Assembly: GCA_051294905.1 (NCBI GenBank)
Contig: CM119372.1
Span: 37,078,001-37,142,000 of the forward strand
Source of the DNA: Botryllus schlosseri
Taxonomy: Eukaryota
DNA: 64,000 nucleotides
Direction: 5' to 3'
Part shown: positions 5,577 through 64,000 of the stretch, one piece after another
Numbering within the stretch: the stretch's first letter is position 1
How the letters are laid out: each line of letters opens with the position of its first letter
The notes under the pieces: generated by a model
What the model saw: the letters and a program-made list of their open reading frames with translations, nothing else
Database searches by the model: none
Told to the model about the DNA's origin: nothing
Translations under genes and position numbers: made by a program

Positions 5577-5677
5577 TAATCCAGTGTAATCCCTAAATCA
5601 TTATAATTGAAGGGTCTTACTCTTACTGAAAGCCTGATTGATATTTAATTCACTTTAGCAAAGTTTGAGAAACACCC

Positions 5678-6765
5678 AGAGGTGGTCAAAGTAGTCGAGA
5701 ACGCTACTCGAGTAGAAGTATCGACGAAAAAATCTACTCAAGTACGAGTAGAAGTACTTCTTCCTTAAGCAACCTAAAACTACTTGAAGTAGAAGTAGAT
5801 TGACTGACTTTAAATCTACTTAAGTAAGTAAGTAGTTGTGAAAACGATCGTAATTCGTTCGCATGGACCGTCAAAAGCTGCAAATGGAGCTATGCGGAAG
5901 GTGTAGAGAACTTGATTCATATTGATGCATCCCAGGAGGTGTCAATTTCTGACAGAATAAGCAGTGGTCCAAATCATGGGATGTAAGTGATAGCATTGAT
6001 ATGAAAATGCAATACTAATTCTTTGTTTACTCGAACACCCCGTTTTAGAGAATATCATGGCATGGCGCCCACCGCCACATTATAAGGCCGCTAGTTCAGT
6101 CGAAGAGCAATACGAGGAAGTTGCGCCGGATACGGCTTTAACACTTTGCGCGATTAGTATACGTTAACTAAAAATATGGCAGATAGTAAAAATGCCATAT
6201 ACTGTATAGCTTTATTTTCGGAAAATATAAGGCATTACTACACTTGCTTTTATACTTCAACATATCATGTATGTTTTCCAGACAATTTAACTGAAACTTT
6301 TATTACAACTCAGCGTATAATACTCATAATTGACAGAAAAATACAAATACTACTTCTGAAAAGCGGAGAATATATTTCATGTCTTTTGTCCAGAAAGTTT
6401 CAACGGTGGTCTGCTAAGACAGGTCGAACGTTAAAAAAGTCAAAGTCCATTTTTCTAGATTAGGACACGTCAAGGGCTGCTAGGTATAAAAGTTATTGCT
6501 AGATTGCGGAACAATGGTTTCAAACGTTAAGGAGGGCCATGCTTACTGTGATGAAATATTTGGTATAGGCGACAACATGGTGTGAACGGAATCACGCAAC
6601 CCGGTACCGGCATCCAAATTATATTCAGTGATACTTTCGTTAAAACATATTTGTCACTCCATATCTACTGTGCTGGATGCGCAACGAAAGTTCTGGGTAA
6701 TACATGACTTTTATGAAAATGAAATGTGGGTACTACGTGAAAACAGACTCGAAATTCCTTGGAAT
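5678..6765 (+). mobile_element. hAT MITE family A, left part (right end missing)
   Basis: Starts CAGAGGTGGTCAAAGTAGTC. Interior is homologous to 32443-33559 (reverse) and 52303-53074. Confidence 0.75.
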
Positions 6766-8771: not shown

Positions 8772-10285
8772 ATTATTATTATTATATTCTTTATTCACAG
8801 TAAGAAACTGGTCAACACACACATAATCCGGGGAGCAACCTGCACCCAAAGGAAAATGGCGAGATTGGAGTAAATATTTAAAATTTCAGTAATGCAGTCA
8901 AATTGTTATTCCTATGCAATACATGGAGAAGTCAGATTACAGAATTGCAGTAGATGAAGAATTGGCAAGGGTTACAGAGCAGAGGTAGAGATGATTGAAA
9001 ATGAAGAATCGAAATTACAGAAATGATGCTGTGATTCACTAGTATAATTTTAGTCCAGTGGTGCATTCAAGGCCTTCCGAAGAATATGCACATTGCACAG
9101 TGCCCAATAACGTGATCTTTTGGATCATGTCGAATCGAACGTTACCGGAATCTGTTGGATATGTCTCATGAGCAGTGGTGGCCAGACGATTGGGGGGGCC
9201 CTGGGCGAGACTCCGGGGGCCCCCTATAAGTATGTAATCGCAGCTTCTGGGGGGCGGAGCCCCCCAGACCCCCCATTTCGCGTAACTACTTAACAGGCAT
9301 GCAGAGACTTCATTATTGTCGTGATATGGGACTTTAATAACAAATGCGTAGATTTGAAGATAGACTCATCTGAACGGAATCATCTTCTTGATTGGTACAA
9401 GGATGTCCACGTCCATTCGCTACAACCCGTTAAAAAAGCGCTAAAACCGAAGAGGGGGGCCCCTTTGACCGGGGGGGGCCGGGCGACCGCCCACCTTGCC
9501 CACCCCAAAAGCCACCACTGCTCATGAGTTTTTTGCTTACGACCCCTGGGGCGCCAATGACTATCGGTACAATGTTTATATTGCATCGCCACATTTTCTC
9601 ACATTCCATTTTGAGATCTGCGTACTTGGAGTGCTCTTCTGATTCTTTTTGTTGTATGTTGTGATCAGCTGGGACAGCCAGTTCAATGAATAAGCGTTCT
9701 CTTTTCTTTTTTAGTTTGATGATCATATCCGGGCGGTTGCTTCTGATTTCGCGGTCAGTTATAACTGGTAGCCTATATCCCACAGAATTTTTACCTGGTC
9801 GTTTTCTGTCACTGGTGCTGGGCTGTAATCGTACCAATTTTTGTCGAAGTGGTGATGTTAAAATGTTTGCATAATTCAAGATGAATGTAGTGGCCAATCC
9901 CATTGTGTCTCCATGTGTATTCGGTAGCTGCAAGTGCACCACTGCCGGACATGAGATGTGCTACAGTTTCATTTTGGTTGTGGCACATTCTGCATTTGGC
10001 GTCCGTGGTTTGCTTCAGAATTCTTTTGCGATAGTATTTTGTAGGAAGCGATTGGTCTTGTGCTGCAAAAATGAATCCTTTGCTTGCCGGTTTCAGGCCA
10101 GAGCTGGATAGCCAGGTCCATGAAAGCTCGTCTACATGGGGCTGTGAAGGTAACTTCTTGTGCTGTCCATGAAGAGGCATTGACTCCCATATCGTTTCTC
10201 TCATTTTGAGCGTTGCATTTTTGTATCGAACTCGTGCTGCTTTTGCTATTGTTGTGGGTTTGGCAACAGTGTTTTCAGCAGTGTA
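8772..10285 (-). mobile_element. 5'-truncated non-LTR retrotransposon with restriction-like endonuclease (R4/Dong-like), split by a MITE
   Basis: Frameshifted minus-strand ORFs give LHGQ, AAQDQSL, a zinc knuckle CRMC...ETVAHLMSG, the RHN motif, RPD...IELAVP...KY and VPIVIGA. The C-terminus (IQKITLLGT..ILRKAL) resumes below 9172. A (TAA)n tract at about 8772-8784 is the likely tail. Confidence 0.85.
9173..9520. mobile_element. GC-rich hAT-type MITE inserted in the RLE retrotransposon
   Basis: TIRs CAGTGGTGGC / GCCACCACTG. Perfect 8-bp TSD CTCATGAG at 9165-9172 and 9521-9528. Confidence 0.9.
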
Positions 10286-10287
10286 CA

Positions 10288-10565
10288 GTAGGGTTGTTCA
10301 AAAAAAACTTTTTTTTCCAAATCTCACTCGTCTAGTGACTAAATCGTCAGGTTGTCCAAGAAAACGATGCACACCAAATTTGACTCAATTCCAACCAGTT
10401 AAGGCCGTGCAATCTTGAATTGAAATTTTTAATTTATTATGAAAAATAAAAAATGAAAAAATCTCAAATTTTTCTGTCTACCCCATGAAATTGTTGAGCT
10501 GTCATCAAAGACGATGCAAATCAAATTTGAGTCAATTCCGACTTGTAGAAGCGGAGTTATTCGAG
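10288..10565 (+). mobile_element. Single arm of the foldback MITE family seen at 28910-29555
   Basis: TAGGGTTGTTCAAAAAAAACTTTT...GATGCACACCAAATTTGACTCAATTCC is similar to the arms of 28910-29555. Confidence 0.65.
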
Positions 10566-11809
10566 TTTTTCGTTGATAATTCTCGGATTATCCTTGATCC
10601 GGGGATTATCAACGAAATGCTCAAATAGTTGACCAGATTTCAAGTCTGACAAAAAGGTACTGCCTAAAAAGTGTCAAGTAGAAGTGGGAGTAGCCTAAAC
10701 TCATAATGACGCGAGTACTCAGGTAAAATAGTGCTTCGCTGCTGACCCCCTCTGTATATTGGTTCAACCAACTCAGAAACATCCTCTAAAGACGACGAAC
10801 ATTGTTTCTTTTGCATTGACTTCGTAATATTCTGAACAAATTATATTCTTTGATTCATTGAATTTACAAATATACTTGGAAAGAAGTGCAATTTATTAAT
10901 TTTTCTTTTGCATTCGATACCCAGAGCATAAAAAATAGTGGAAGAATGCATGTCAACCTTATCAAGTTCAATAACTGCCGACACTTTATGCCCATGTCTT
11001 TTCCTCTGCCTCCATAGCCACTTGTCTAGACAGATTCATAGCATCTACGGAAGAGCGCTTATCTTGCTGTACACAAATGGAATATTATTTCCAAAGCAGA
11101 CATCAGCATCGGGAAAGAAGTTCAGGACAGTTAGTCAATGGTCAGATCATCTGCTGACATTTCTGTCGGCATGAAACCACACTGCTTTTTACCGCATGAC
11201 CAAATTTTATGTGGTGATCATAATTGGCTCCAGGCTGAACTTTTACGAGGGCATCATCAATTTCTTAGTTGCCTACGTTCGGCTCTCTTGGGATAATCCA
11301 TCAGATCATTAATTCGTATACATGAGGTAAAGCCATGTATTGAAACTCAAGATATTTGCAATGTGCCAAACAGTAAAGTAATCCAATCCAGGCAATCAAT
11401 CAAGTAATCTAGACAGTTTGTTGCATCATCAGTTGGAGCTGATGATCATTTTTCTTCGGCTAGTGCCACTTGGCAGCATGACAGAATGATCAATAACTTG
11501 TAATATAGGTATAGAGGTCTAAATATTTTGAATTGTTTACTGAGAAGCCATACAATAGCATAGGATGTTTAATATATGTATTGGATGTAGCATGTTGCAT
11601 GAATTCCTAACACATCAACGTACTGGCAGTCGTCTCTTCAGGCTTAAAAATAGCGGTATCCTTTATATATTGCAAACGATATCAATCATCAAAATACTGC
11701 AATGATTACCAACCATCACTATACAATACAACTATAGTAGGTTATGCAGTGCTGCTTTAAATATCACGTAGTCAATCAAGTAGTGCTAATAAAATCAGTA
11801 TTGTATAAG

Positions 11810-13106: not shown

Positions 13107-14395
13107 TGTATAAGGCAACAATGAAGTGCACTGCTTTGTTTGGTCTTGATGTCAGGTTTTCCCAAAAGATACTTCCGATGTGTTTAGCGACATTGTTTTA
13201 TGTCAGCACGACAGCTGAGCCCACAGTATATTCTGATCCTTGCGGGTCTCAGCTGCTTCAGTCATATCTTCCATCCCAAATCAGGCTCCACAACAGACAT
13301 ATAGTACTACCAGAAGTAATAAATACTCTTACCAGAATATAAACCAATCGCTCTACTTCAATTGCCAGAATGTAAGTAGGCTACATATGATCAGAGTTGA
13401 GTACCGTAATACGACTACGTTACCGAGGGATTTCTGCGTAATTCTGACGATGTCAATCGAAATGCTTTGTACAGGACTGTGGTCTAGCATAGGTGAATCT
13501 ATGATGACAACCACAACAAATTTCTGAACCGTTTACAACTAGAAATCAACAGTACAGTATGCGATATTTAGCGCTGAAGCAGGTGCGCGAGAAAGTAGCT
13601 TGCTAACCAATTTGTGGTTGCTATGCGTATCTAGTCACGTGATCGAAGTCCTGCAAATGGCCTATTGGCAACAGCATTCCATCGAGCTAAAATCAGTTGA
13701 TACGAATGGGCTGGGCATATTGCCTTGACGTGCAATGGCCCACACACTGCCAAGGCCGGTAGAAGCTTAGAAAACGGCTTAGGGCTTCGCCATAAAATCA
13801 AAGCTTTACGTGGATAAGGTCTCTCATGTAGTTACGTCTTTCGCAAGCCCCAATATCGATTCCATAGTCGCTGAAAAGCGTTGCCAGATATCGTGCACAG
13901 CTCAGAGTTCAGAATAAAATTAAATTGATTATCATGATTTTTGTTGTATTTGTATTCCTTTGATAAAATATAACTTTTTTGTGGTAACTATGCTCATCGC
14001 CTATGTAAGATAGCACTACGTTGTACTAACATAAAGTTTTAAAACGTGGTTGCTAAGCTGTGTAGCCTATGTTATATCGATATTGAATTCATGCGGCCCG
14101 CGACCGCTACGAAATTGAAAAGTGGCCCGCCACCCGTTTTGAGTTGGCGACCCCTGCGTATAATCAATGCCGCAGCCGAATCGTACTCTTACTAAAAGTG
14201 CGGTCACTATGAAATTAATTCACGATCGATATTTCGAGAAATGGACTCCTGCGAAGAGAGAAACCGAGAGTTATACTGCACAGCTCCTCGTGGTGTAGAG
14301 ATATGGATTAGGCTACCTTTCTACAAAATAGATTGCACATTATGAAAGGGTTATTCCATGTGTGAGACGGCGTGCTGTGAGGAAGAAGTTAGTGC

Positions 14396-15631
14396 ATGAA
14401 GTCAGAGTTCATGGACGTTGATATTTCCGTCATCTACAACATTTCAAATGGAACGGCTGCTCGACTGAATTTATCTCAATCACAAATGGCAACAATCTGG
14501 ACCATATGTGGATTACTATCAGTCGTGGGCATCATCGCCAATGGAATGATGATCATGGTGTTGACTCGGACGAGGAAAAAAGTGTTCACCACGATTATTA
14601 TGGGACTTTGTCTTTCTGATATCATTTCTTCTTTGAACAGTCCACTGTTGATATACCAGAGTTACTCGTGGAAAAATTTTAATTTGCCATTGCCATTTTG
14701 TGCTACACCGATACCGATAGATATCGCTACCTCTGTGGTGACCGTTAATCATGTCCTGTATCTTAGTATATATCGTTTCCGTAGCATAGTACAGACCGTC
14801 AATTCAGACGAGAAAAACACCCTTCAACAATCCCAAGTGTTCGTGATAATGATCTACCTCATTTCGTTCACAGTGATGGCTGCGCCATTACTGTTCACTT
14901 TCGAAATAACCGAAAACAACCACATCTACTCTTGCGACCTCAAAATGTCAATGTATAGAATCACGAAAATATTATCTTTGGCTTCGTTGACTGTAGGCAT
15001 CCTCATACCAACGGTATTGATACTAGGGCTATGCGGGAGTATAATAATTGTCATGCGTAAAAGGATGGTAACAACTCAACGCGCATTCCGAATTCCGATA
15101 TCTAAGTGTTGGAGGTTTACCTAGGCTCCTCCTCGCCACCTCATCCGCGTCAGCGGTGTCTTACAAAAGCCTAGAGGTGGGCCGTGCTATAAGTCGGCAG
15201 TTACGGAAAATAAGAAGAATATCGGCCTGGTGTAAATGACCATAGTAGTCGACAAACACCATGAATACCCCAAAACAACAACAACAACAACTCAACGCGC
15301 AACCAACACTCAATCCAGGGCACAAGATCGGCAGGCCCTGGTTCAACTTTACGGAATCGTGATATCGTTCATCATCGGCTATTCTATTGATTATTTTGCT
15401 AAATTTTACGCTCACTATAACACCGACAGTTCAATGTTTAACACTATGGTCACAGTCATTTCGCATGGGATTCTCCGCATAACAGAGTGCATCAATCCTT
15501 TCTGGTACTGCTACGCTTCCAGCGATATTAGGAAGGAATGTAGAAAGCTCCTCCCATATCACCAAAGTAAGCCCGTGCGTCCTAAAGCAGTGGTTCTCGA
15601 ACTAGAGGCGCGTCCCCTTGAGGGGGCGTGA
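14396..15631 (+). pseudogene. Intronless orphan class-A (rhodopsin-like) GPCR disrupted by a SINE insertion in ICL3
   Basis: TM1-5 lie in 14396-15124 (GIIAN, LCLSD, YRF at the DRY position, ECL2 Cys, TM5 Pro). TM6-7 lie in 15236-15631 (INPFWY) in the same frame. Removing the 216-bp insert gives a 339-aa 7TM ORF. Confidence 0.88.
15086..15285 (+). mobile_element. 5'-truncated SINE with (AAC)n tail
   Basis: Flanked by the 16-bp direct repeat AACAACTCAACGCGCA (15070-15085, 15286-15301). Homologous to the reverse complement of about 57187-57395. Confidence 0.88.
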
Positions 15632-19832: not shown

Positions 19833-19991
19833 CAGAGGTGGTCAAAGTAGTCAGGAAAGCTACTCAAGTAGAAGTAGAAGTAGTGACGGAAAATCTACTC
19901 AAGTACAAGTAGAAGTACTTCTTCAATAAGCCACCTAAAACTACTTGAGTACGTATAAAAAGTAGAAGTACTTCGTGACCGACCACCTCTG
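19833..19991 (+). mobile_element. Minimal 159-bp hAT MITE family A
   Basis: TIRs CAGAGGTGGTC / GACCACCTCTG. Perfect TSD GATATCAG (19825-19832, 19992-19999). Confidence 0.92.
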
Positions 19992-24499: not shown

Positions 24500-27400
24500 A
24501 CCAAGTGTGGAATACTTGCATGGCAAGCGCCATGAAGCTACACTATAATCAAATGGAGGCACCAACTGAACTTCTTCCAGGGCTGAACGTCATTTCTTGG
24601 CAATTTCAGTGGACGGGGGAGAGTCTGAAGACGAACACATCGATTACCTCCTTACTATCTGCGAACGCCAATCTATGAAAAGAAAGGATCGTCGAAGGAT
24701 CACAACTGGGGTTTTCTGCGCCGACACGGGAAGCGTCCTCAAATTGAAAAACGTCGTAGAAACCTAATACCCGCCAAGCTGGAAAGAGCGGCAACCTATA
24801 GACATGAAACTACGTGATATAGGTGACTCCTCCCACGTTGACTCCTTAGTAATAATCAATTTCGACGGACTGTCGGCTCCATTTGCGATCGAGAAAGGAG
24901 ACCTCTCGATATTGTAGGTCTAAAATGGATTGATCATGTACAACAATTACCAAACATAGCGACTGAATTTGAATCTCCGCCTAATGCAAACGAAGAGTTG
25001 TCTTTAGTAACGCTTCATGACGAGATCTCGTGTGATCAGCGGGACGGAACCAAAGTCGGAAGCAGTCTTCGCGACACTGTAACCGATGATGGGTTGATGG
25101 AAGCTGCAAATCAAATAAGCGTCGAGTCGGCACGTTGTCTGTGTCGCCGCAGGCCGTTGCCGCTGGCGCAAGTGTCGAGATGGTAATCACCACTGGCGCG
25201 AAATGTGTCGAGTCAGGAATCCCTGCTGGCACCAATCATAAATACGCCGATCTTACGACGGCAACTGTCTTACCTTCTTTCCCAAAAGGTCAAAAAATAT
25301 GGGAAATCCCTAGTGTTGGGTCAGGTAGCCCCTGCTGGCACTAGTCGAGAAAGTGTCGGGTCAGTTAGCACTGCTGGCACTAACTAAAGATGTGTCGAGT
25401 CAGGAATCCCTGCTGGCACCATTAATGAAGACGTCGAGCGCGGAATCCCGGCTGGCGTAAATAAGGACCTGCACGAGAAAACTGGTCCTAAATGCTCTCG
25501 TGGATGCACTTGTCCGAATAACTGTAATGATTCGGCACATAGATGCATGACGACAGCCACAGTCATGAGTACTACCCCAAAAGGTTTAAACAAAGCAGCT
25601 ATTGCCGGTCAACCGGATACACGCCCGGTCATGTCCGGCAAGGAGTCTGGGGATTTTAAGATGCACGTCTCCCCAGAAACGGGCCCCGGCGGCGACCGAA
25701 TCCGCCGGCGTGACGGTAGGCGTGGGCACGCGCCGAGATCAGAGGTCAGATTGAATAGGTTGGGAATCCCCGCTGACAACGAAGAGCCTCACCCTCCCTC
25801 CACCAACACCAAAACCCCGTTCATCACGAGATTCGCATTGGGCCAATAACTGGCCCAATTACTATGTAGCCTAACCTTACAGCAAGACACCAGTCCCAGC
25901 GTGAAGACGGAACTCGAAAGTCTCTGTGCACAATCGGTAGCACTGGCGAAACTGTCATACAAACCTCCTGACTTTTGACTGGCCTATAAATTATGGCCAT
26001 TCCTGAAGGAGTCTTGACAGCCGTTTATGATCCATTTGCTTCCGAACTTGATAGCCTGCGGGGCCAACTCAGCGCCCCCCAATCCATGAAATACCATTGC
26101 GACATCGGACGTAAGGACCCATCGACTAAGCCTTTCGTTTCTGGCCCTTATAACCTGACGCGGGAGGGTCAGGCGAAGGCACTAAAGGAAGCAATAGATA
26201 TAATACCTGATTTTGGTATTATTGAACAAGGTTTTGCCGAATGAAAAATGGCTATTTTTGTTGTTCATGACAAAACGAATGAAAGACTACAAGACAAGGC
26301 GAGCCGCACTCGATAGTAACAAGAAAACCCCCTTCCCAAGAAGTGTACATGATCGCTTACTACAGTTAGACGTGGGTAACTCCAGCGGCGAAAGCCCATG
26401 ATCCATGCACTACAACGCTGAAACACCTACTACCCATAGCTCTGGCATGGCGGATGGAAACGACGCTGGTGCAAGTTACACAATCGCAACCGATGCATGT
26501 AAAAAAAGACAAACTGTGACTGCTTATGGGAGGCAGCAGTTGCAAACTCGCACACGTAACCAACCCGAGGAAACGATGCAAACCAGCGGTGAAGCACCAA
26601 TGACAACGCGTGTACTTCCAGTTACCACTGCGGACGCTCTGCAGGACTCCACGGATGACGGCGGAATTGGAATCGGAGCGTACTACCAAGATCCGGATCA
26701 CAACCATAAGGCAAGTACCGAAACATTCATTTTGTATTTATCAGGAGACAACAACGACGACTCATCCACGAAGATTGTCGAATTAATGACTACTATCTTG
26801 ACGTCAACGATGGATGACGCATCGCTATAGACTGGGCAGAAGAACATCAAGGGCTCGAAACGTCCGCACCTGAATATCCCCGACTATCAAGAACCACCGT
26901 GGGAAAGACAACCCCAAATTCGACTGATTCGAGCTATACTCGACGGCTACACAAAATGGTGAGGATGGAAGGCGGATATAAGGTAGGAGGCTTATCTTTC
27001 ACCGATAGGATGATTATGGAAGGTGCGAAACTGATACCTACACTGGAACCAGTGGCTTTAATAATGGCGGTAACAGGGTTGATTGCTCTGTTGAGTGTGA
27101 TATGGGTAAGTTATATAAAGTGTCGTCGACGTAGAACCTTAAGTCGCACTAGGAACACGAGGAGACGAAACGGAGCAGAGCAAAGGATGGCGATAAGAGT
27201 ACTACGGAACACAACGGAGAATTACCGAATTTGAAGGTAACAGAATTGGTTCTTAAAATTTACTTGTAAATACAAGATGTATGAAGTTTGTATAGGAAAG
27301 TAGTGAAATGTGATGTTATAATTGTGGTAAATCGTTAAGTAAATTTGTGATAGGTATCAGGCGTACAAAAATAATCCCGGCGACGCATGGTTTGTAATAA

Positions 27401-27700
27401 GTTTCAAGTGAAGTATTTTACGTAATGGGCGTAAACGGAAAAAACTGAAACCTCGTAACTAGATTTAAGCTGAGTCATGATAAGCTAGTTATGTAACGTA
27501 GAAAAATAAGAAAGGCAGTGCATCGTTTATAATAGGTATCAAGGGAAGTATTTTACGTAATGGGCGTAAACGGAAAAAACTGAAACCTCGTAACTAGAAA
27601 TCTGCTGAGGTGTGAAATATCAAATCGAGAGAACAATAAAAGAAAAAGGTTGACGTGTGAAAAGATTGAGTCAATAAGGTGATCACCATGAACGGGTAAT
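24500..27700 (+). mobile_element. Decayed Gypsy-like retroelement relic (gag-like region, RT N-terminus, transmembrane ORF)
   Basis: ORF 25993-26244 KPFVSGPYNL...KALKEAIDIIPDFGIIEQG resembles the P...PY.L...LK..I....GIIE segment at the start of Gypsy RT. An upstream FSG.GE remnant and a Cys/His cluster are gag-like. Downstream ORF 26899-27234 has one TM helix and a basic tail. Boundaries are approximate and no LTR pair was found. Confidence 0.5.
27410..27598 (+). repeat. Perfect 54-bp direct repeat, 135-bp spacing
   Basis: GAAGTATTTTACGTAATGGGCGTAAACGGAAAAAACTGAAACCTCGTAACTAGA at 27410-27463 and 27545-27598. Confidence 0.95.
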
Positions 27701-28909: not shown

Positions 28910-29555
28910 TAGGGCTGTTAAAAAACAAACTTTTCCTTCAGATTTCACTGGCTACTTGATAACATTGTTACAGGTTGGTTAAAAAGAGGCTGCACACCAA
29001 CTTTAGCTTCATTCCAACCAGTAGAAACGAGATTCGTGCAGTTGAAAGTTTTGAATTTATCAATAAAAAACAAAAAATCAAAATTTCAAAATTTTTCTGC
29101 CGACTCCATAAAATTGTTAGGCTGTCTGTAGAGATGATGCATACCAAATTTGGCTCAATTCTAACCACTAGAAGTGAAGTTATTGCAGAAGAAAAATTAG
29201 TAATTCCGTGATTTTATAATAAATAATCAAGGAGTTAGTCACCGTAAATACAATTCTATTCAAATCCAAATTTTTCTACTGCAATATCTTCGCTTCTAGT
29301 GGTTGGAATTGAGCCAAATTTGGTGTGCATCATCTGTACTGACAGCCTAACAATTTCATGGGGACGGCAGAAAAATTTTGAAATTTTGATTTTTTGTTTT
29401 TTATTGATAAATTCAAAACTTTCAACTGCACGAATCTCGCTTCTACTGGTCGGAATGAAGCCAAAGTTGGCGTGCAGCGTCTTTTTAACCAACCTATAAC
29501 AATGTTATCGAGTAACCAGTGAAATCTGAAGGAAAAGTTTTTTTGAACAGCCCTA
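28910..29555. mobile_element. Foldback/palindromic MITE with about 290-bp inverted arms
   Basis: TAGGGCTGTT...AACAGCCCTA termini. The mirror ORFs 28975-29211(+) and 29256-29492(-) are near-identical because of the inverted arms. Confidence 0.9.
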
Positions 29556-29782
29556 GTGTCCATCAACCTAAACTCAAATAAACACGTATCCAATCGATTA
29601 TTCAAAATCACGTAGGCCTACAGATACCCTGCAGCGGCTCATAGGCAACACTAAATATGAGCTACCCGAAGGCAAATTTATTCATATACCATGTTATTCG
29701 TAATCGCTCACTCCACTTTCGGTAGTGCGTATTATATATTCGATCGGCTTAACGCAAGAGCCACCGAGCGAGATAATGTAAT

Positions 29783-29958
29783 GGTGATGCGTCCGGCCCA
29801 CTGGTCAATATAAACGGCTCATTGATCGGTGTGGTTCATGGATTCAATCCCCCGACCGAAGACTCGTATCCGCGGCTTTCCCGTTAATAGGTGCTCACAT
29901 CAACGGATAGCATGGGGGAGTAATAAATGATGGTGCAGCCTGTATGACCACACCGTCT
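29783..29958 (+). mobile_element. Probable tRNA-derived SINE (degenerate)
   Basis: A-box-like CGGCCCACTGGTC and B-box-like GGATTCAATCCC at tRNA-like spacing. Confidence 0.45.
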
Positions 29959-29981
29959 TTGTTTTGAGGTATTCATGGTGT

Positions 29982-30301
29982 TGCAGCTATCCAGCTGTGA
30001 TCACTCGTCCATGATATTCCGCAATGTCTCGAATAAGAACCTACTTCTTGTTGTGATGTCTTGACACTCTATATAAGTGTATGGTATCACGTGTGAGACT
30101 TTACTTTTGATTATGAGACTCTATACGCTACTACTGTATAACGTTCTGAATAAACCATTGTATTGAGCATATATCTGGTACGAAGAACTTCACCCAAGGC
30201 AACAGCTTCTCGAGATAAGTATTGTATAGCCGAGCACCAAGACAATTGGTTAGCTGTACTTTCATACAGATCATCAGAGACATTAAGCTCTAATTGCTGC
30301 A
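29982..30301 (+). repeat. 5' LTR
   Basis: Direct repeat of 35587-35906. Contains TATATAA and AATAAA. Confidence 0.93.
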
Positions 30302-32442
30302 TGGGCCCTGAGAAAGTCGTTCGGGTATACAACTTCAATACTGAGACTGACGTTTTTGCTATCGACGACAAGGACATTCTTCACGGACGAACACGGTACA
30401 CGTTTTTAATTGTCAATTTCTGTTGAAAACGATCATGACAGCTGACCCTATTGAATTGTGTATGTGTTAGTGATTTTTGAAGTGTTATTGTTATATTGTC
30501 GTTACATATTCAATGTTGCCATAGACAAGTGTTTACTAAAGTGTCTAAATGGCGAGTAAAAATATGCAACCAGCAGCTGAGAAGGTACTATACTCTGAAA
30601 TCGGTCACGCTAAATATGTTAAGCACGAAGATGCTTCACCCGGTATTGCCGATGAAAGAATTAGGCACGCTTTTCCTATCAGCTGTGCAATAAACGCGCC
30701 TACGTATTTAGGCGAACCTCGATTTAATCGAATGGTTAAAATTGGTCAAAATAACGACGCCATTTTCTCCGGACAGCCGGGGCTATCAGCGCACATTGCG
30801 AAAAATTCGACTATCGTCGACCCGCAAGAATCAAATCGCCTTCCCGTTCAAAATTGTGTCGCGCCGTCAGTAAATGATAGCTCAGCTTTTCTGAGACAAT
30901 ATATGACTGACGCGCAAAGGCAAATGACTTTGATTGTTGACAAACTGAGCGCATTACATTCGATACGCGTTACCCGTGTCTCTAACCTATGATTTCCAAC
31001 CAAAATATTACGCTAAGATATGGTCGAATGTGAATTAGGTCTTAGGTATCTTTTGTGCTTGAATTCGTTAATATGGGATTTATCTTGTGCACAGATCAAA
31101 TTAACTTATCCCACAATCGTAGAATTCGTTAAGCACTATATCTTATGGGATTACCGTACGCTAATAATGGATTATGTCCCACATTTACTGAGAAAATATC
31201 ACCGATTTATGCAATTACACGGCAACTCTCATTGAATATTGAATTGAGATGCGAGAAATCGGGGGCTGGCATTCGTTCGACCCGGGTGTGTAGAGGCGGG
31301 ATGAAGAAGTTGAGAGCCTAACGCTTCCTGGTCCGAACAAACCTGCAGATTGAACGGACCGGGGCTAAGGCGGGCCTCTTTGCGATCATTCCCGTGTCTA
31401 TACGATAGAACCTTTGACCGGTACCGCAGTCTCGTGTCGGATTTATATGCATTGACTGTATAATGTCGAGCGGCATCCTTTATGCCTACAACGCATTTTT
31501 ATCAACCTTCATAGCTTAATGGCCTCTGCTAAGTTAAGGTGTTATCGGTGACTTCAAATATTATTAACATTACGCCCGTAATGTTCTTCATCTCAGCTCT
31601 ATATATAGACCTATTGTAAAATTCGGTAAAACTATGTCATATCTTGTTCAGTCGAATAATAACTGAACAGCGTACATTGGTTTGGATTCATAGATAACGG
31701 ACACGGAATAGACTAGTTACGGAAATCTTTTTTTTAAATTCGTGAACGGATACTTATCACATAACGCGTATGTGAATTTCGATATTAATACGGCACACGC
31801 TATAGCGCCACCACGTTCATGTTCCGCTGATTCTAAACTCAACGGTTTCTTAAATTTCGTAACTTTTAGCAAGGAAGTGTAATTTCGCTATACAGATTTC
31901 TTGTTCAGCATAATCGCTGAAATCATTATTCGGTTCCACCATTATTATCTAACCGAAATTATGCTAATTTGCCCGAATATTGTACTTTTACCGATCGTCC
32001 ATAATGACGCATCTTTCATTCAAAGAACCCATTCGTAACTCCACATTGAGTAATGGTAGTCTGACGGCATTTCAAAAAGTGATTTCATAGGCATTTCAGC
32101 TTTCATATATTTACAGACACATAACAGCCCTCTCACTCCTCTGTATATGATAACATCATGCCATGATCCATGTGAGTTTGACAGATATTGTAATTACTCA
32201 CTTACATTTCTAATAAATCCTTCATTTGTTTTCGATTACGCGCCAGACCAGAGCATCTATTCCGCAACTCCTAAACGCTATCTGGGTTGCTCTTTGGCTG
32301 ACGTAATAGGGCATGACTCCCTGTTTGAATTTTTTTTTCTACAATTTGCTACACATGTTACACGTTAATGTATAAGCGTGCAAGATTGAAATATGACACG
32401 CCTTCGGGACTATTTGTAATTACCGAGGCCGTGCTTTGTAGC

Positions 32443-33559
32443 CAGAGGTATTCAGTAACGAAGTACTTCTACTTTTTTTTGATTTACTCGAATCAATTTC
32501 CTCTACTTCGGATCCTTACTCACGTACATCTGATTTTCGCTACTTCTATTTCATAATACTTTGTGATCTACTTACTTACTTTTCGCTATTTTCAGTTTGT
32601 CAAGTAGAAGTAGTTTAATCCTTCAATCAGGAAGATAGCCTGAGGAATTCCGGGGATGTTTTCACGAAGTATCAACACTTAATTTTCATAAAAGTTGAGT
32701 AAAGCACCGCGTTGTCGCACTTCGCCTGGCTCGTCATGACGTTTGAAACGGATGTTTCGCAATCTAGCATTTACTTATCATATTGCAATCTAGCAGTCCT
32801 TGACGTGTTCTAATCTGGAAAAGTGGACTTTGATTTTTTTTAGCTTTACAGATGTTTTAGCACACCAACCTTCGAAACTTTCCGGACTAAAAACGCTTTT
32901 AGAAGTAGCATTTATACTTCATTTTCAATCCCCAGTATCATATACTTTGAGTTCTAATTAACATCAGTTCTTTTGTCTGGATAACATACATGTTGAAGTA
33001 TTAAAGCAAGTGTAGTAATGCCTTTAATTTCTGGAAATAAAGCTACACAATATGGCATTTTTACGGTCCACTATACTTTCTTATTAACGTTTACGGATCG
33101 CACAAAGTGTTTAAATCGTATCCAATACAGCTTCTCCGTATTGCTCTTCGACTAAACTGCAGGCCTTATAATATGTGGGATAATGTCATACCATGATGTT
33201 TTCTAAAACGTGCTGTTCGAGTAAACATAGGATTAGTATCGCATTTCCATATCAATACTATGATTTCAATCCCATGATGCTGACGAATGCCTATGCTGTC
33301 AAAAATTGGATACCTCCTGGTATGCATCAATCTAATCAAGCTCGATTTACACCTTTTGAGAATCCATGTAAGCGAATTACGATCGTTTTCACAGCTACTT
33401 ACTTACTTGAGTAGATTTAAAGTCAGTCAATTCTACGTCTACTTCAAGTAGTTTTAGGTTGCTTATGGAAGAAGTACTTCTACTCGTACTTGGGTCGATT
33501 TTTTTCGTCGCTACTTATACTTCTACTGAGTAACTTTCTTGACTATTTTTACCATTTCT
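32443..33559 (-). mobile_element. hAT MITE family A nested in the LTR element
   Basis: Reverse copy of family A with eroded TIRs. TSD TTTGTAGC at 32435-32442 and 33560-33567. Confidence 0.85.
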
Positions 33560-35586
33560 TTTGTAGCAAGATCTAGCTTTAGTATCTGCTTTTTAATATT
33601 GTTTATATCATTCAGCTTATTTTCATTAATAGCTTACTAACGCTACCCTACTTTATATTTCACGGCATCGCGTGCGTACATTTAGCATAACTATGAGCGC
33701 TATCCCGTACTTCAACAACATGTTGCAATTGCTGAGATAATTACTCCGCATAAAGAGACTATCAGAAAAATGTGTATTTCCACATTGTTAAGCCCTTGAA
33801 ACGCCCATTATTTTCAGTTTTCGATATAATTTTAATAAACAACCACTGAACAGGCTTATAATGTATCTTTCAAGTTTGAAACATTTCTTAGTGCTTCAAC
33901 AGCCTTATAATGACTCGATTAATATCAATTCTGTATAACGTCATAACGCGCTGTTTTATCATTTCTAGCCAGTTGATTGACTTGTGATGAGTTCACTTTA
34001 CAAAACTCAGCAGTACCTATCAATCGCACATCCGCTGTCAAGATTACGCAAACCATTACCCCGGCCGCACCGAGAATTTATTACTTGGATCGCAATTTAA
34101 CAGACATGTTTTGACTTACATTAGGAGTTCGCTAGTTACCAGACTTCCTGTCCATATTGCATTTTCTTTCGCCACGTGCAAAATATTTTTCGCGCGTCTG
34201 CTCCCTACATTTTTTTCCGCAGTCGCCAGTGATTGACCCCTTACTTGCAACGCTGTAAGGGAACAGCGTGCCTTATTGTTTTTAAAATTGTTTCTGATAT
34301 TGCTAACACCGTACTACTTAGGTACGCCTTCTCAGACTGGTCGCTTATTGATAGATTGTGTGCTTTCTTTCATGCTTGTATCGTTATTTTGTGCTGATTG
34401 TAATAGTGCTAGTATATGCCCTTTCGACGTGATGCTGTCGTGAGGTTTTTTGCAGAATTGACGAATTATTCGTGTCCGTCGTCCACACTTCCGCGTTCCG
34501 GCGTACGCTTCTACTCATGTGTGCAAATTCATCGAAACGCTTTCGACCACTTCAACAACGACCTGGCAATATTCTCGGGACGATTCTGAAACCACGTGCC
34601 GTTGCGCTGCAACAATTGACAGCGACAGTTCGCCCCTATTCCACCGACGTAACGACACCGATATACCGCGACCGATCGCCCGACCGTCCGAAGATATCCC
34701 ACCTCTGCAATCATTGGCCGGCACTATAGCACCATCACGCGTACGTAGCCACGTCGAATCTGAAACCCCGCACAGCGTCTTAAGTGAGCTGTATATACGC
34801 TGAAGTCTGTGTCAATCAGACAAATGATGAATCGCAGACGAAAATTACGCAGTTCTTACAACCCGAGACGATGCCAGACCCCACAGGAAACTGCACGTGC
34901 ACGACAGTGCAGGCACACATGAGTTGGAGTAACAAGTTGTACGCCGGAAACACATGTACATTATCGATCGAGATTTTGGACGGATTTCACTGACCAGGAA
35001 CACACTGGTGCATATGGGCCACGGCCCGAAACTGAAGTTTACGCGGACTTGAGTATGTTGGTTACTCTAAGTCACAATATCGATCGAGATATTGCAATGT
35101 TTGAACTGGCCACTCTTGTATATATACCGGCCACGAACCGAAGTGAATTCTGCCTTCACGTGAACAGCGGCGGTACCACTCATGATGATTTGGGCTGTCA
35201 CGTGGATGAATTTGTATTTGATTAGGCTTACTTTTTGCTTAGGATTAAATTGCTTTGTGTTATTCCATTTCGGGTAACTTGTATATTAGAAATGCAGTAT
35301 AAAACCTTACTCTTGCAATTCTCATACTATAACTGAAACTGTATAGGCCCAATTCATTGTAGTTGTTTGATAACATTTCAGTAATTACTTTAAGGGTCGT
35401 TGGAAATTTAAAGTCTTACTCGTAGTGTGACTAACCGATCTCTTTTTTTTAATGGGGACGGGGTGACCTTTCTGTACCAAAATTTGTATTCGACATAGTA
35501 AATCGATTTTGTCATTCATGGTCGTATAATCTAATTGGCTTTTCCCTTAATTAGCCCTAATTAAGTTCCTTTTCGAGAAGAGACTG

Positions 35587-35906
35587 TGCAGCTATCCAGC
35601 TGTGATCACTCGTCCATGATATTCCGCAATGTCTCGAATAAGAACCTACTTCTTGTTGTGATGTCTTGACACTCTATATAAGTGTATGGTATCACGTGTG
35701 AGACTTTACTTTTGATTATGAGACTCTATACGCCACTACTGTATAACGTTCTGAATAAACCATTGTATTGAGCATATATCTGGTACGAAGAACTTCACCC
35801 AAGGCAACAGCTTCTCGAGATAAGTATTGTATAGCCGAGCACCAAGACAATTGGTTAGCTGTACTTTCATACAGATCATCAGAGACATTAAGCTCTAATT
35901 GCTGCA
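35587..35906 (+). repeat. 3' LTR
   Basis: Direct repeat of 29982-30301, preceded by a polypurine tract and followed by the TSD GTGT. Confidence 0.93.
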
Positions 35907-35934
35907 GTGTTTGTGGAATATGGTCAATTGCTGA

Positions 35935-37262
35935 CAGTAAATTCAAAAATTAACCTAACAGTTAACATCGCTGGTCACCCCGTTTCCAACACAGATAATG
36001 CAAAATATATCGGGGTTTTATTGGACTCGGACATATTCTGGAAGAGTCATATTCAGTCCCTGGACACTAAATTATCACCAAAGTGCGGCCTGTTCTACAG
36101 CCTCGGACGCTTCATGCCAGCCTGGGTCCTTCTGACACTCTTAAAATCCTTAATCAAATCGAAGTCACAATATGGCATCCTTTGTTGGGGGCTCCCAATT
36201 TAACTGCACTCGAGGGACTGCAAAAACTACAACATAAGGTCCTCCGTATCAAAGCTAGAGCCCCACAGGGGCCTGGTTGTCCATCCAACAAGTCGCTGCT
36301 GAAGAGATTTGGTGTCCTAAACATAGATAATATGCGGAAACTAGAAATCGCAAAGTTTATGTATCAGTTCCACTATGGTCGTTGCCCCGAATATTTCAAT
36401 GACTTTTTTTTTACCTCAGACTCAAAAGCGCACAAGTATAGCCTACAACACACACGCGTCCACGTTGTCCAAATATCATATGATTGACCGAAAAGATCAT
36501 CGCTCCATCAAATATGCCGGACCTGATGTGTGGAACAATATCCCGCCGGCTATCCGACAGTCGACGAGCATGTCCACATTCAAGTCAAAATACAAGGAAT
36601 TACTACTAAATGAATACTAGTGCATCCTCAAGATTACCGGAACACGACTGACCTATCGATCTCGCCTTCCATGACATGCCACCCCATTTTTGTCTCTTAT
36701 TGCTTTCTTCTATACCCGTGGTTCCCAACCTTTTTCGACTCATCGCCCCCTTTTCAAGTTCAACACCGATCATCGCCCCCCAAATTTTGTGAACCGAAAA
36801 ATGGGCATACAAACTGGAAGCACCGGCGGGTTGACTAAAAAAAAGGTCAACTTTTCGGCTCGATGTCGAATTGTACACTTTTGCAACCAAATTTTGGTGG
36901 GTTGATTAAAAAAAGGGTCATTTCTCCGCCTTGACTCCAATATAGCCGTTTTAACGCGTCATCGCCCCCTTCGCTATTTTCGCCCCCTGTCGCCCCCTTC
37001 GTCATTTTCGCCTCCCTAGACCGTCAAATCGCCCCCTGGGGGGCGATATCGCCCACGTTGGGAACCACTGTTCTATACTATCCTCTTTACTTTTCAGTCA
37101 GTGCGCGTGCCTCCTCTTCACATCGCCTAGGCCAAGGTGGGTGTCTGATTCCATAGACTACTCCAAGTCGCTTCGACACCTTCCTATTTTTTCATTGTAT
37201 CGCATTTTGTGGTACATTGAACTGATAAAATTGCTAATAACCCAATAATGATGATGATGATA
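35935..37262 (+). mobile_element. 5'-truncated CR1/L2-group LINE (ORF2 C-terminus and 3' UTR)
   Basis: Frameshifted ORFs give AKYIGVLLDSDIFWKSHI, YGILCWG, LQKLQHKVLRI and SIKYAGPDVWNNIP...FK, the typical post-RT region of apurinic-endonuclease LINEs. (TGA)n-type tail near 37249-37260. Confidence 0.85.
36716..37070. mobile_element. hAT (Charlie/Buster-type) MITE in the LINE 3' UTR
   Basis: TIRs CCGTGGTTCCCAAC / GTTGGGAACCACTG. Perfect TSD TTCTATAC. TCGCCCCC subterminal repeats. Confidence 0.9.
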
Positions 37263-37778
37263 ACAGGCCAATTTTTTTCATTTTTATTCCGTAGCTACCG
37301 ACTTGTAGCACGGCCCTCTTCTACGCTTTTTATGAGACAACGATTACACGGTCTTATGTCGCATCTCTATCGTCCAAGATATCGGTGGTGCTGGAAGAAA
37401 ATAAATCTGAATCCTCTCTCTTTCTCTTTCTCGCTCTAAAGAATTGTTCAATTTCGTAATGTTGTGGCGTTTGGAACTGATGGATGATTGAAATAAATTC
37501 GTACCGGTTTGGTTCAGCTCATTGTATCCATAATTTCATCATTGCTCAACAGCACAAGATTGCAATAAGTTCAAAAAACAAATGAAATACCGATACTAGC
37601 GATATCTGTGAAACATGAATATATTTGAGAGTCCTCAATTTCAGTCTACGGTACGATTCGATGTTTATTGTTTACACTTGATTGAAAAATTCGACAGTTC
37701 AAGACTTCAAGTGAATCGAGTCCGCTGTTGTTTCAATTGTTGCTTGTTTCCGAGAAATACAGTTAAATAAACCTTCAG

Positions 37779-40823: not shown

Positions 40824-46236
<5,413 letters not shown>

Positions 46237-50809: not shown

Positions 50810-51265
50810 CCCGGACTAAAGGCATGAAATACATGTTCCACTTTTAGAAGTAGTATTTACATTTTACTTCTAATTCCCAGTATCATATACTATGAGTTAT
50901 AAATAATATCAGTTCTTTTGTCTGGATAACATACATGTTGAAGTATAAAAGCAAGTGTAGTAATGCCTTTAATCTCCGGAAAATATATCGAAAATTGGAT
51001 ACCTGTTGGTATGCATCAATATGAATCAAGCTCGTCACCTTTCGCATAGCTCAATTTGCACCTTTTTACAATCCCTGTGAACGAATTTTAGGATCGTTTT
51101 CACAACTACTTACTTACTTGAGTACTTTTAATGTCAGTCAATTCTACTTCTGCTTCAAGTAGTTTCAGGTTGCTTATGGAAGAAGTACTTCTACTCGTAC
51201 TTGAGTAGATTTTGTCGTCGCTACTTCTACTTGAGTAACTTTCTTGACTACTTTGACCACCTCTG
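50810..51265 (-). mobile_element. hAT MITE family A, partial reverse copy
   Basis: Ends GACTACTTTGACCACCTCTG. Interior matches 32880-33559. Confidence 0.75.
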
Positions 51266-51295: not shown

Positions 51296-53637
51296 CACTG
51301 AGCAACAATTTTGCACGAAAAATTTGTTGACTTTGATTTTTCACTAAATTTAGGCTAATTGTAGCGTGCTGATTCCAAAACTGTCGCTGGTTTTCTTCTA
51401 CACGTCAAGGTTTTGCTCTACGACATATGCCCAAAATATGCAAATTTTCACGAATCTAGCAATAGATATAATACTTTCCCATACCACATAGAAAACCACA
51501 CTTTTATTTCATAAGTTATATTGCCAAGGTGTCAATTGAATAATAAGGAAAAAAGGTACTTGTATCGATCTACTCCGGTTCTTTCACCCATTTTTGGTTA
51601 GAGAAGACAATCATCCGAGGATATTTCAGACACATATTTAATGCAAACTGCAGGATATGGCAAGTAAAATAAACATTACATACTGTCAACAATGGGTCCA
51701 ATGCCCTGTTCAGCCAATCCAGTGTAACTTGTAACTCCTATACGCTCCATAATTTGGGTCAAGGTGAAGATCTTCGGGATACCAGATGAAGATTTGGATA
51801 TCGAAGATGATTCAGAACGTACAGTAGTCCATTAACTCAGGGTAAATGATCTTATATATAGGCTTTGGGACTTGGAAAAGAAATATTTGGAACTTTAATC
51901 ATCCTTGCGTATTGAAAAAAAAAATTACTTGGCAAGAGAGAGAAAATATCTCACTTTCGATCACGAGTAACGGGGTTTTCATCGTAGGGCTACTTTCGGT
52001 AGCTTTGTGTATTGCAGTGATACTGGCATTGGCACAAAACTTTTACCATGGGTTACTGGAGGAGTTAGGAATCCCGATATACAACTCAACTGAATGGCAA
52101 ATGTCTATTGGTAGATCAAAAAGGATCTGAAAGTGTGGCATTCTCCGATATGGCAACGTCTTATGTGCAGTAACAATTGCACATAGCACACATTGCACTC
52201 AGTTAGTCTTCGTGAATAATACAGAAATTTTGAGAATAATACAGAAACATTTTTGCAATATGACAAGCAGGACTGAATCATATCCTATGTGTCAGTTTTG
52301 AACAGAGATGGTCAAAGTAGTCAAGAAATCTACTCAAGTAGAAGTAGAAGTAGCGACGAAAAAATCTACTCAAGTACGCGTAGAAGTACTTCTTCCATAA
52401 GCAACCTGAAACTACTTGAAGTAGAAGTAGAATTGACTGACTGACTTTAAAAGTACTCAAGTAAGTAAGTAGTTGTGAAAACGATCCTAATACGTTCACA
52501 TGGCTTGTAAAAAGGTGCAAATTGAGCTATGCGATAGGTGACGAGCTTGATTCATATTGATGCATACCAGCAGGTATCCAATTTTCGATAGCATAAGTAT
52601 TCGTCCACATCATGGGATGAAAATGATAGTATTGCTATGGAGATGCGATGGTAATCCTCTGTTTTCTCGAACTGCACGTTTTAGAAAATAGCATGGTGAA
52701 CGGAACCACGCCAACCTTCTACCTAAATTATAATCTGCGCTATTTTCGTGAAATCATACTTGTATCTCTGTATCCAGCATTGCGCGCGAAGCGCGACGAA
52801 AATTCTGGGTTTCACCAAACTTTTATGAAAATTAAATGTTGATACTCAGTGAAAACAGCCCCGAAATTCCTCAGACTATCTTCCTGATTGGAATATTGAA
52901 CTACTTCTACTTGACAAACTGAAAATAGCGAAAAGTAAATAGTAGATCACAAAATATTACGAAGTAGAAGTAGAAGTAGCGAAAATTAGATCTACTTGAG
53001 TAAGTACCAGAAGTAGAGGAAAACTACTTGAGTACTTCGAAAAAGTAGAAGTACCTCGTTACTGACCACCTCTGGTTTTGAAATACTGTGTATTCTTAGT
53101 GGTCAGACAATAAGGATGCACAATTGCACATGTAACCTTGATACACATATGCCGCTGCACTACTACATGTTTATGTCGGACAGCTGACATTCAGAAAAGC
53201 TGAAATATCTAAGTAATTTCCCGGAAAACCTTGGCATAGTCAGCAATGGGCAAACAAAAAGAATCTGCCAATATCTGAAGATGATGGGGGAAAGACAAAA
53301 TTATGAGTTATTATCGTAAATTTGGGCCCTGAAACGCGCTTTTTAATTGTTCGGCAAAAGTAATATCCGTTTAAATCAATCAAATAAAGCAGTGCAAATG
53401 TTTATATACAGTCTGTTGATTTACTATCGACTGCTTGAGGTTTTTGAAACGGTTTATACAGTTTACACAAAATATTAAAAGAAGTGCTTTTATGTGGGTT
53501 ATCAGACAATGTGGAGGGTGCCTAAACCTAAAATTGGACGTGATGGAGAAAAACGTAAGTCATTTTTTAATTCAGCGCCCAAAAGTTGGTCAAAATCAAT
53601 TGTCTGATCAAAGTCAACAAAAATTGTGTTACCAGTG
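51296..53637 (+). mobile_element. Chapaev3-like DNA transposon, decayed second copy
   Basis: TAA|CACTG...CAGTG|TAA. Transposase remnant GLLEELGIPIYNSTEWQMSIGRSKR..GN..VTIAHS at about 52050-52190. Reverse homologue of 3754-5576. Confidence 0.78.
52303..53074 (+). mobile_element. hAT MITE family A, both ends present, inside the Chapaev3-like element
   Basis: TIRs CAGAGATGGTC / GACCACCTCTG. Perfect TSD GTTTTGAA. Confidence 0.92.
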
Positions 53638-57186: not shown

Positions 57187-57470
57187 TGTTTTTGTTGTTT
57201 GGGGGTATTCATGGAGTTTATCGACTGCAATGGTCATTGGTCATGTACACCAGGCGATAATCCTTACTTTTGATTCCATAACTGCCGACATGTAGCACGA
57301 CCCACTTACAGGCTTTTTTAGTACACCGCTTACGCGGATTATATGGCGAGCAGGAACGTAGATAAACAGCCCACACTTAGGTAGGAATTCTGGAGTCGGT
57401 CGGACTCGACCCACGGCCCATTGATGTTACAGCCGTGAATCATACCTCTAGACTATCTCGCCACACAGTG
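57187..57470 (-). mobile_element. Near full-length tRNA-derived SINE (same family as the GPCR insert) in an opsin intron
   Basis: Minus strand has A-box-like TGGCGAGATAG and B-box-like GGGTCGAGTCC. Body and CCATGAATACCCC(AAC)n end match 15086-15285. Confidence 0.8.
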
Positions 57471-63743: not shown

Positions 63744-64000
63744 AATGAGAGAGCGTTCAATGTACTATTTTTAGGTGATACACGAACTCCTTTTGTTGAC
63801 AGAGTTTTGGTTGGTGTATTTTGATAAAAGTTGATTCCAAGGCTATCGAGACGACCGATTTCGAATCGTAGGTCGAGACCGTTCACAATTCCATTTGTGT
63901 GCCTTGGAATCAACTTTTATCAAAATACACCAACCAAAACTCTGTCAACAAAAGGAGTTCGTGTATCACCTAAAAATAGTACATTGAACGCTCTCTCATT
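63744..64000. repeat. Perfect inverted repeat, arms of at least 100 bp with a 57-bp spacer, running off the window
   Basis: 63901-64000 is the exact reverse complement of 63744-63843. Confidence 0.95.

What the first reader, a model, noticed from the sequence alone, without database searches (positions are those of the whole stretch)
29982..35906. Brand-new LTRs around an old, non-coding interior: a trans-mobilised LTR parasite
Seen: the two 320-bp LTRs differ at only one position I could find, and the TSD, PPT and a TGG-starting PBS-like site are intact. The 5.3-kb interior has no ORF over 147 aa, no recognisable RT or integrase, and holds a hAT MITE with eroded TIRs. Established: LTRs are identical at insertion. 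Inference: the element transposed recently in this decayed state using a partner's enzymes (LARD-like, best known from plants) and carried the DNA-transposon passenger through an RNA intermediate.
Basis: partly seen in the sequence, partly recalled or inferred. Interest (0 to 1): 0.7.

Follow-up and report, generated by a model that had tools for sequence, protein, structure and literature searches.

The report
Gene-less LTR retrotransposon carrying a MITE
This is a young copy of a multi-copy, transcribed retrotransposon family that has no enzyme genes of its own; it carries an older cut-and-paste transposon inside, and some sister copies appear to keep the scar where that passenger jumped out, which is a tidy example of a known kind of genomic parasite.

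Summary
In detail: 320-bp LTRs differing at 1 site, a 4-bp TSD confirmed by an uninterrupted paralog of the target, no recognisable gag-pol, and a 1,117-bp hAT-type MITE with an 8-bp TSD and eroded ends. No genome was held, so public runs were laid on the element. In two DNA-like runs the whole interior is covered far above single-contig depth. In single-cell RNA, sense reads run from the interior into the LTR and pile up at its poly(A) signal. The MITE junction occurs in both near-identical and about 8%-diverged copies, so it was probably inherited through retrotransposition. Not shown: the helper element, other insertion sites, the primer tRNA. Gene conversion between the LTRs is not excluded. 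Verdict: a non-autonomous, LARD-size LTR family, probably Gypsy-dependent; a new member of a known kind. The scan's index held no look-alike of the two stretches looked up.

The parts
29978..29981 (+). 5' target-site duplication GTGT
   Evidence: single GTGT in the uninterrupted paralog
29982..30301 (+). 5' LTR, 320 bp; TATA-like box at 30070, AATAAA at 30149
30302..30316 (+). PBS-position sequence starting TGG directly after the LTR; primer unidentified
   Evidence: no pairing with own LTR; 7-8 nt match to the anticodon arm of the human tRNA-iMet printed in PMC8216282, not significant
30549..30992 (+). 147-aa ATG-started orphan ORF at the gag position; possible Gag N-terminal remnant (inferred)
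   Evidence: shuffles; no homologs; model confident only for a C-terminal helix
30993..32434 (+). left interior, no long ORF, indels among sister copies
   Evidence: (table 5)
32435..32442 (.). left 8-bp TSD of the MITE
32443..33559 (.). hAT-type MITE, 1,117 bp, eroded terminal repeats, very high-copy family
   Evidence: depth
33560..33567 (.). right 8-bp TSD of the MITE
33568..35586 (+). right interior; GC-richer part 34400-35250; imperfect 39-nt direct repeat 34958-34996 / 35074-35112
   Evidence: no homolog for a read-through of 34416-35222
35575..35583 (+). short purine run in PPT position, 3 nt before the 3' LTR; differs among sister lineages
   Evidence: variants tables 5c and 7
35587..35906 (+). 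3' LTR; sense RNA of the family ends shortly after its AATAAA (35754)
   Evidence: run X23
35907..35910 (+). 3' target-site duplication GTGT
35913..36700 (+). host flank: broken LINE-type reverse-transcriptase 3' remnant; the insertion point itself lies in a short-repeat tail (29959-29981 / 35907-35929)

Best explanation
A recently inserted copy of a long-lived non-autonomous LTR retrotransposon family (5.9 kb with the MITE, about 4.8 kb without). Shown: LTRs, TSD, no recognisable enzyme genes, many related copies, sense RNA ending in the 3' LTR, the MITE at one site in diverged copies. Inferred: a donor copy is transcribed LTR to LTR, the RNA is packaged and copied by an autonomous element, probably Ty3/Gypsy (4-bp TSD), and reverse transcription resets the two LTRs to identity while the interior keeps its old mutations. 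The MITE inserted once into an ancestral copy, was passed on through the RNA, lost its terminal repeats in this branch, and was cut out in another branch whose footprint was then amplified in turn (footprint step about 0.65 on its own).
For: LTR divergence 1/320 (95% range 0.008-1.7%) against 24 of 238 and 17 of 223 private MITE columns. All 30 bins covered in X1, X8, X2; interior median summed depth 587 in X1, where the eight listed contigs have depth 7-82, six of them under 17. MITE-interior junction in X2 record 13 (2 differences in 348 bp, depth 37.9) and X8 record 20 (26 differences and 4 gaps in 333 bp, depth 234). Joint 32436-33562 in X2 (271.6) and X8 (81) with 0 shared letters and 8 letters between in X2. 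Interior-to-LTR junction in 109 X23 reads (108 on one strand, 43 starts); depth 167 at 30000-30199 falling to 9 in the next bin. At two U5 positions both LTRs of this copy share a base that 98-100% of family depth lacks (table 3).
Against: No helper element and no second insertion site were seen (no genome; 15 of 15 metagenome hits were short chance matches). Summed contig depth is not a copy number. Only 102 of 3020 X23 reads are 99% or more alike, so RNA from this locus is not shown. X2 is RNA only by inference. The footprint rests on one contig per run with letters shown for X2 only, and needs two later changes; 144 joints were not displayed. Gene conversion was predicted in 25% of plant LTR pairs (PMC7251063, abstract).
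Confidence: 0.8

Rival explanations
1. The insertion is old and decayed in place; its LTRs were homogenised later by gene conversion, so the MITE inserted at DNA level at this locus.
For: Conversion is common in LTR pairs (PMC7251063, abstract). The lineage-specific U5 bases shared by both LTRs fit conversion as well as reverse transcription.
Against: Both 4-bp TSD copies are intact. The same enzyme-less interior is covered far above single-contig depth, and the MITE junction exists in an 8%-diverged form at depth 234 in X8. Conversion would have to cover nearly all 320 bp.
Confidence: 0.1
2. A lone, internally rearranged derivative of an autonomous family whose other members have gag-pol; it moved once and is not a family of its own.
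For: In the DNA-like runs LTR depth is about 9-10 times the interior, and some middle bins drop (31200-31399: X1 116, X2 28), so other elements or solo LTRs share the ends.
Against: All 20 interior bins outside the MITE are covered in X1, X8 and X2, with indels among sisters; no coding remnant was found.
Confidence: 0.06
3. LTR identity is an assembly or polishing artefact.
For: The assembly's own reads were not identified; the best run holds 55% of the words.
Against: The LTRs differ at one site and carry bases rare in the family, whereas collapse would pull them to the common family bases. Both interior-LTR structure and TSD are coherent.
Confidence: 0.03

Closest known systems
LARDs (large retrotransposon derivatives; defined as non-autonomous LTR elements over 4 kb in PMC13570524 and PMC6696364, passages read)
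   Same: Two LTRs, TSD, PBS- and PPT-position motifs, over 4 kb, no enzyme genes, multi-copy.
   Different: Animal host; 4-bp TSD; short LTRs; no unusual RNA structure outside the MITE ends and two windows; carries a MITE and an orphan ORF. LARD-annotated contigs are already reported from an amphibian (28 contigs, PMC8498967, passage read).
TR-GAG and other Gag-retaining non-autonomous elements (PMC13570524, passages read)
   Same: An ORF at the gag position and no pol.
   Different: The ORF is only 147 aa and has no detectable Gag domain or homolog.
Animal TRIMs and animal Helenus (PMC10886601, passages read; supplement not read)
   Same: Non-autonomous LTR elements of animals; animal Helenus make 4-bp TSDs and are proposed to use Gypsy enzymes.
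   Different: Those are under about 1 kb; Helenus and Ajax have tRNA- or 5S-derived LTR parts, which were not found here.
hAT (Ac/Ds) excision footprints (PMC5873905, passages read)
   Same: 8-bp TSD; the MITE-less joint keeps two near-copies of the TSD around an A, the complement of the base next to the right end.
   Different: Here the footprint would be old, carry two further changes and be multiplied by retrotransposition.

Membership tests
LTR retrotransposon (structure) | Two direct LTRs with TG..CA ends and a 4-6 bp TSD | tested here: met
LTR retrotransposon (structure) | Transcript ending in the 3' LTR | tested here: met
   X23 reads, for the family, not this locus
LTR retrotransposon (structure) | PBS complementary to a host tRNA | not testable with these tools
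   no genome, no tRNA in the window
LTR retrotransposon (structure) | PPT next to the 3' LTR | tested here: inconclusive
   9-nt purine run; purine-richer variants in sisters
LARD | Length over 4 kb | tested here: met
   5,925 bp; about 4.8 kb without the MITE
LARD | No coding capacity for RT, RNase H, integrase | tested here: met
LARD | Multi-copy family sharing the interior | tested here: met
   separate insertion sites not seen
LARD | Strongly structured interior RNA (recalled from the original plant description, not read) | tested here: not met
   5 of 38 windows at z of -2 or lower, 3 of them in the MITE
LARD | Dependence on an autonomous partner | not testable with these tools
   no genome; in sugar beet 61 of 115 families also have no traceable partner (PMC13570524)
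TR-GAG | Recognisable Gag ORF | tested here: not met
   0 hits; Atlas best 0.82
Helenus / Ajax | tRNA- or 5S-derived sequence in the LTR | tested here: not met
Self-priming (Tf1-type) elements | PBS complementary to the element's own 5' end | tested here: not met
   duplex -9.4 kcal/mol against control mean -9.9
Half-tRNA-iMet priming (copia, Ty5) | PBS matching the anticodon arm up to nucleotide 40, in a Copia-type element with 5-bp TSD | tested here: not met
   7-8 nt match that stops 5 nt short, 4-bp TSD; compared with the human tRNA only
hAT-type MITE | 8-bp TSD, CA..TG terminal repeats, no ORF, high copy | tested here: met
   no transposase linked

The most novel reading that the evidence does not exclude
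The family is a semi-coding parasite: it keeps the 147-aa ORF under selection (for example a Gag N-terminal piece that steers its RNA into the helper's particle), primes from an anticodon-cleaved tRNA-iMet although it makes Gypsy-type 4-bp TSDs, and its MITE-bearing and footprint-bearing branches compete for the same helper, so the cost of 1.1 kb of cargo can be measured directly.
Probability: 0.1. Interest if true: 0.6.

Novelty: new member of a known kind. Interest (0 to 1): 0.36.

Why it matters
Non-autonomous LTR elements are under-annotated, and large ones are little described in invertebrates. This family shows old cargo inside new LTRs and probably records a full MITE cycle: insertion, passive copying through RNA, erosion in one branch, excision in another. 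It is a clean teaching case and a small natural experiment on cargo cost, not a new mechanism.

Tried and rejected
Whole-genome search: no genome held. LTR-end pattern in metagenomes: 15 of 15 loci matched only 18-25 nt, chance. Homologs of the 147-aa ORF: 0 among 1.84 billion representatives, 0 of 241 longer and 0 of 1 near candidates, none in viral contigs, Atlas under 0.9; single-sequence model mean pLDDT 40, so no fold search. 3' GC-rich read-through: 0 of 193 candidates. Rfam: 0. Self-priming, a lead from earlier notes on this genome: rejected. Half-tRNA-iMet priming: too short a match. No RNA holder was on record; this is not used as evidence. Paper searches with tunicate names rested on an unverified guess about the host and gave nothing relevant. 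Searches for a MITE or its footprint amplified inside an LTR element (passages of PMC9659126) found no matching description, which is a narrow search of an open-access library.

Full report
OBSERVATION. The element spans 29982-35906. Its LTRs are 320 bp, differ at one site and end in TGCAGC..GCTGCA; GTGT flanks both sides. A paralog of the target, a short repeat at 15090-15286, matches 22 of 23 bases of the left flank and continues into the right flank with one GTGT, which fixes the TSD at 4 bp. The right flank is a broken LINE-type RT remnant (Atlas 0.97). The LTR has a TATA-like box at 30070 and AATAAA at 30149. The PPT position holds only nine purines. The longest ORF is 147 aa. Six frames with stops as X gave no Pfam family and three sense frames no PDB hit under E 0.5. 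Pfam also missed the LINE flank, so absence is firm only for well-modelled domains.

THE MITE. It runs 32443-33559 between two copies of TTTGTAGC. A free copy at 19833 has its own 8-bp TSD, so the family is hAT-type. Against free copies in the window the passenger has 24 of 238 and 17 of 223 private columns, versus 10-13 and 4-13 for the others. At six listed MITE positions 91-99% of X1 depth carries the other base, so no large free subfamily looks like it. The LTR pair differs by 0.3% (upper bound 1.7%). The MITE is therefore older than the last resetting of the LTRs.

FAMILY AND RNA. No genome is held. Of 24 runs listed, 20 in 8 studies hold part of the element, the best 55% of its words. 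I laid 4 of them on 29600-35586, which contains one LTR. X1, X8 and X2 cover all 30 bins, X23 27. Median summed depth over the 20 interior bins outside the MITE is 587, 994 and 257; six of the eight X1 contigs listed have depth under 17. That points to tens of copies, but the tool warns that summed depth is no copy number. MITE-to-interior depth is 444 and 683 in X1 and X8 but 1.4 in X2, and LTR-to-interior 9-10 versus 0.7, so I read X2 as RNA (inference; its kind is not on record). In X23, single-cell RNA of which about 3% was read, 109 reads from 43 starts cross the interior-LTR junction, 108 in the orientation expected for sense RNA; depth is 167 at 30000-30199 and 9 in the next bin. The family is thus transcribed into the LTR and ends near its AATAAA. 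Only 102 of 3020 reads are 99% or more alike, so this locus itself is not shown to be active. Sisters differ by interior indels and by their PPT ends (tables 4, 5, 5c, 7).

PASSENGER HISTORY. Two contigs bridge the MITE's right end and the interior: X2 record 13 (2 differences in 348 bp, depth 37.9) and X8 record 20 (26 differences and 4 gaps in 333 bp, depth 234). The MITE is therefore shared by copies about 8% apart, as expected if it was inherited through retrotransposition; segmental duplication is not excluded. A joint 32436 to 33562 removes it in X2 (271.6) and X8 (81), not in X1. A clean site would show 8 letters fitting either side; the table shows 0, and X2 has 8 extra letters (GTAGCATG). 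That leaves 16 nt where one TSD of 8 is expected: a near-copy of the TSD, an A, and a second near-copy. Ac/Ds footprints are centred on the complement of the base next to the element (PMC5873905, passages), here A. I read this as an old excision footprint with two later changes. It rests on one contig per run, letters were shown for X2 only, and 144 joints were not displayed.

THE ORF. 30549-30992 starts with ATG 247 nt after the LTR, where gag begins. 0 of 1000 shuffles of the first kb (sense) and 4% of 500 six-frame shuffles of the interior reached 147 aa; the first window was chosen after seeing the ORF. None of the 12 indels shown (of 131) falls in it. Against function: five upstream ATGs, no homolog, and a model confident only for a C-terminal helix. 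A Gag N-terminal remnant is the simplest guess; it is not shown.

PRIMER. Unresolved. Earlier notes on this genome describe self-priming elements; here the leader pairs with the LTR no better than controls. TGGGCCC is complementary to 7-8 nt of the anticodon arm of the human tRNA-iMet printed in PMC8216282, but known half-tRNA priming starts at nucleotide 40 and belongs to Copia elements with 5-bp TSDs (PMC1181622, PMC10886601, passages). An eroded ordinary PBS is as likely.

MECHANISM. Shown: structure, family, RNA, shared MITE. Inferred from standard LTR biology: packaging and copying by a helper, probably Gypsy (animal Helenus with 4-bp TSDs are assigned to Gypsy, PMC10886601), with LTRs reset at each round. 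At 30244 and 30263 both LTRs of this copy share a base that 98-100% of family depth lacks, which argues against collapse to a family consensus but fits gene conversion too (PMC7251063, abstract only). Confidence 0.8; conversion of an old insertion 0.1.

COMPARISON AND VERDICT. It works like a LARD and meets the size and non-coding definition (PMC13570524, PMC6696364, passages); the recalled criterion of a structured interior was not met. It is not TR-GAG, Helenus or Ajax. LARD-labelled repeats are already listed for an animal (PMC8498967, passage). The host is an animal by earlier scan notes and a rhodopsin-family GPCR; I did not establish the taxon. Supplements were not read; the family lists of PMC10886601 could bear on novelty. 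New member of a known kind; interest 0.36.

Noticed in passing
window 63744-64000: Perfect 100-nt inverted arms around a 57-nt spacer, cut by the window end; could be the centre of a longer palindrome such as the Maverick-derived ones in earlier notes.
   Followed up: no
window 15070-15301: A short repeat with a 16-bp TSD interrupts a rhodopsin-family GPCR reading frame (14393-15124, 15236-15631); relatives at 57187-57390 and 37264-37351.
   Followed up: partly
window 28923-29544: Another MITE-like element with 283-nt arms at 92% lies 440 bp left of the element; a relative at about 10289-10566.
   Followed up: no
window 25200-27610: ORF fragments with 39-bp tandem repeats and a hydrophobic stretch followed by basic residues, then a 124-nt direct repeat; no Pfam family.
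   Followed up: partly
window 9430-10297: Minus-strand non-LTR retrotransposon remnant with a zf-RVT match below the curated cut-off.
   Followed up: no
window 35443-35463: A T-tract followed by a G-rich purine run about 125 bp before the 3' LTR looks more like a PPT than the run at the LTR.
   Followed up: no
window 19833-19991, 52303-53074, 5677-6530, 50840-51265: Free copies of the same hAT-type MITE, one reduced to about 160 bp with a clean 8-bp TSD.
   Followed up: yes
window 31200-31399: Depth drops in X1 (116) and X2 (28): the main transcribed form seems to lack or differ in this GC-rich segment.
   Followed up: no
window 45817-46236: Exon of a 2OG-Fe(II) oxygenase (AlkB-like) gene, weak Pfam match.
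   Followed up: no
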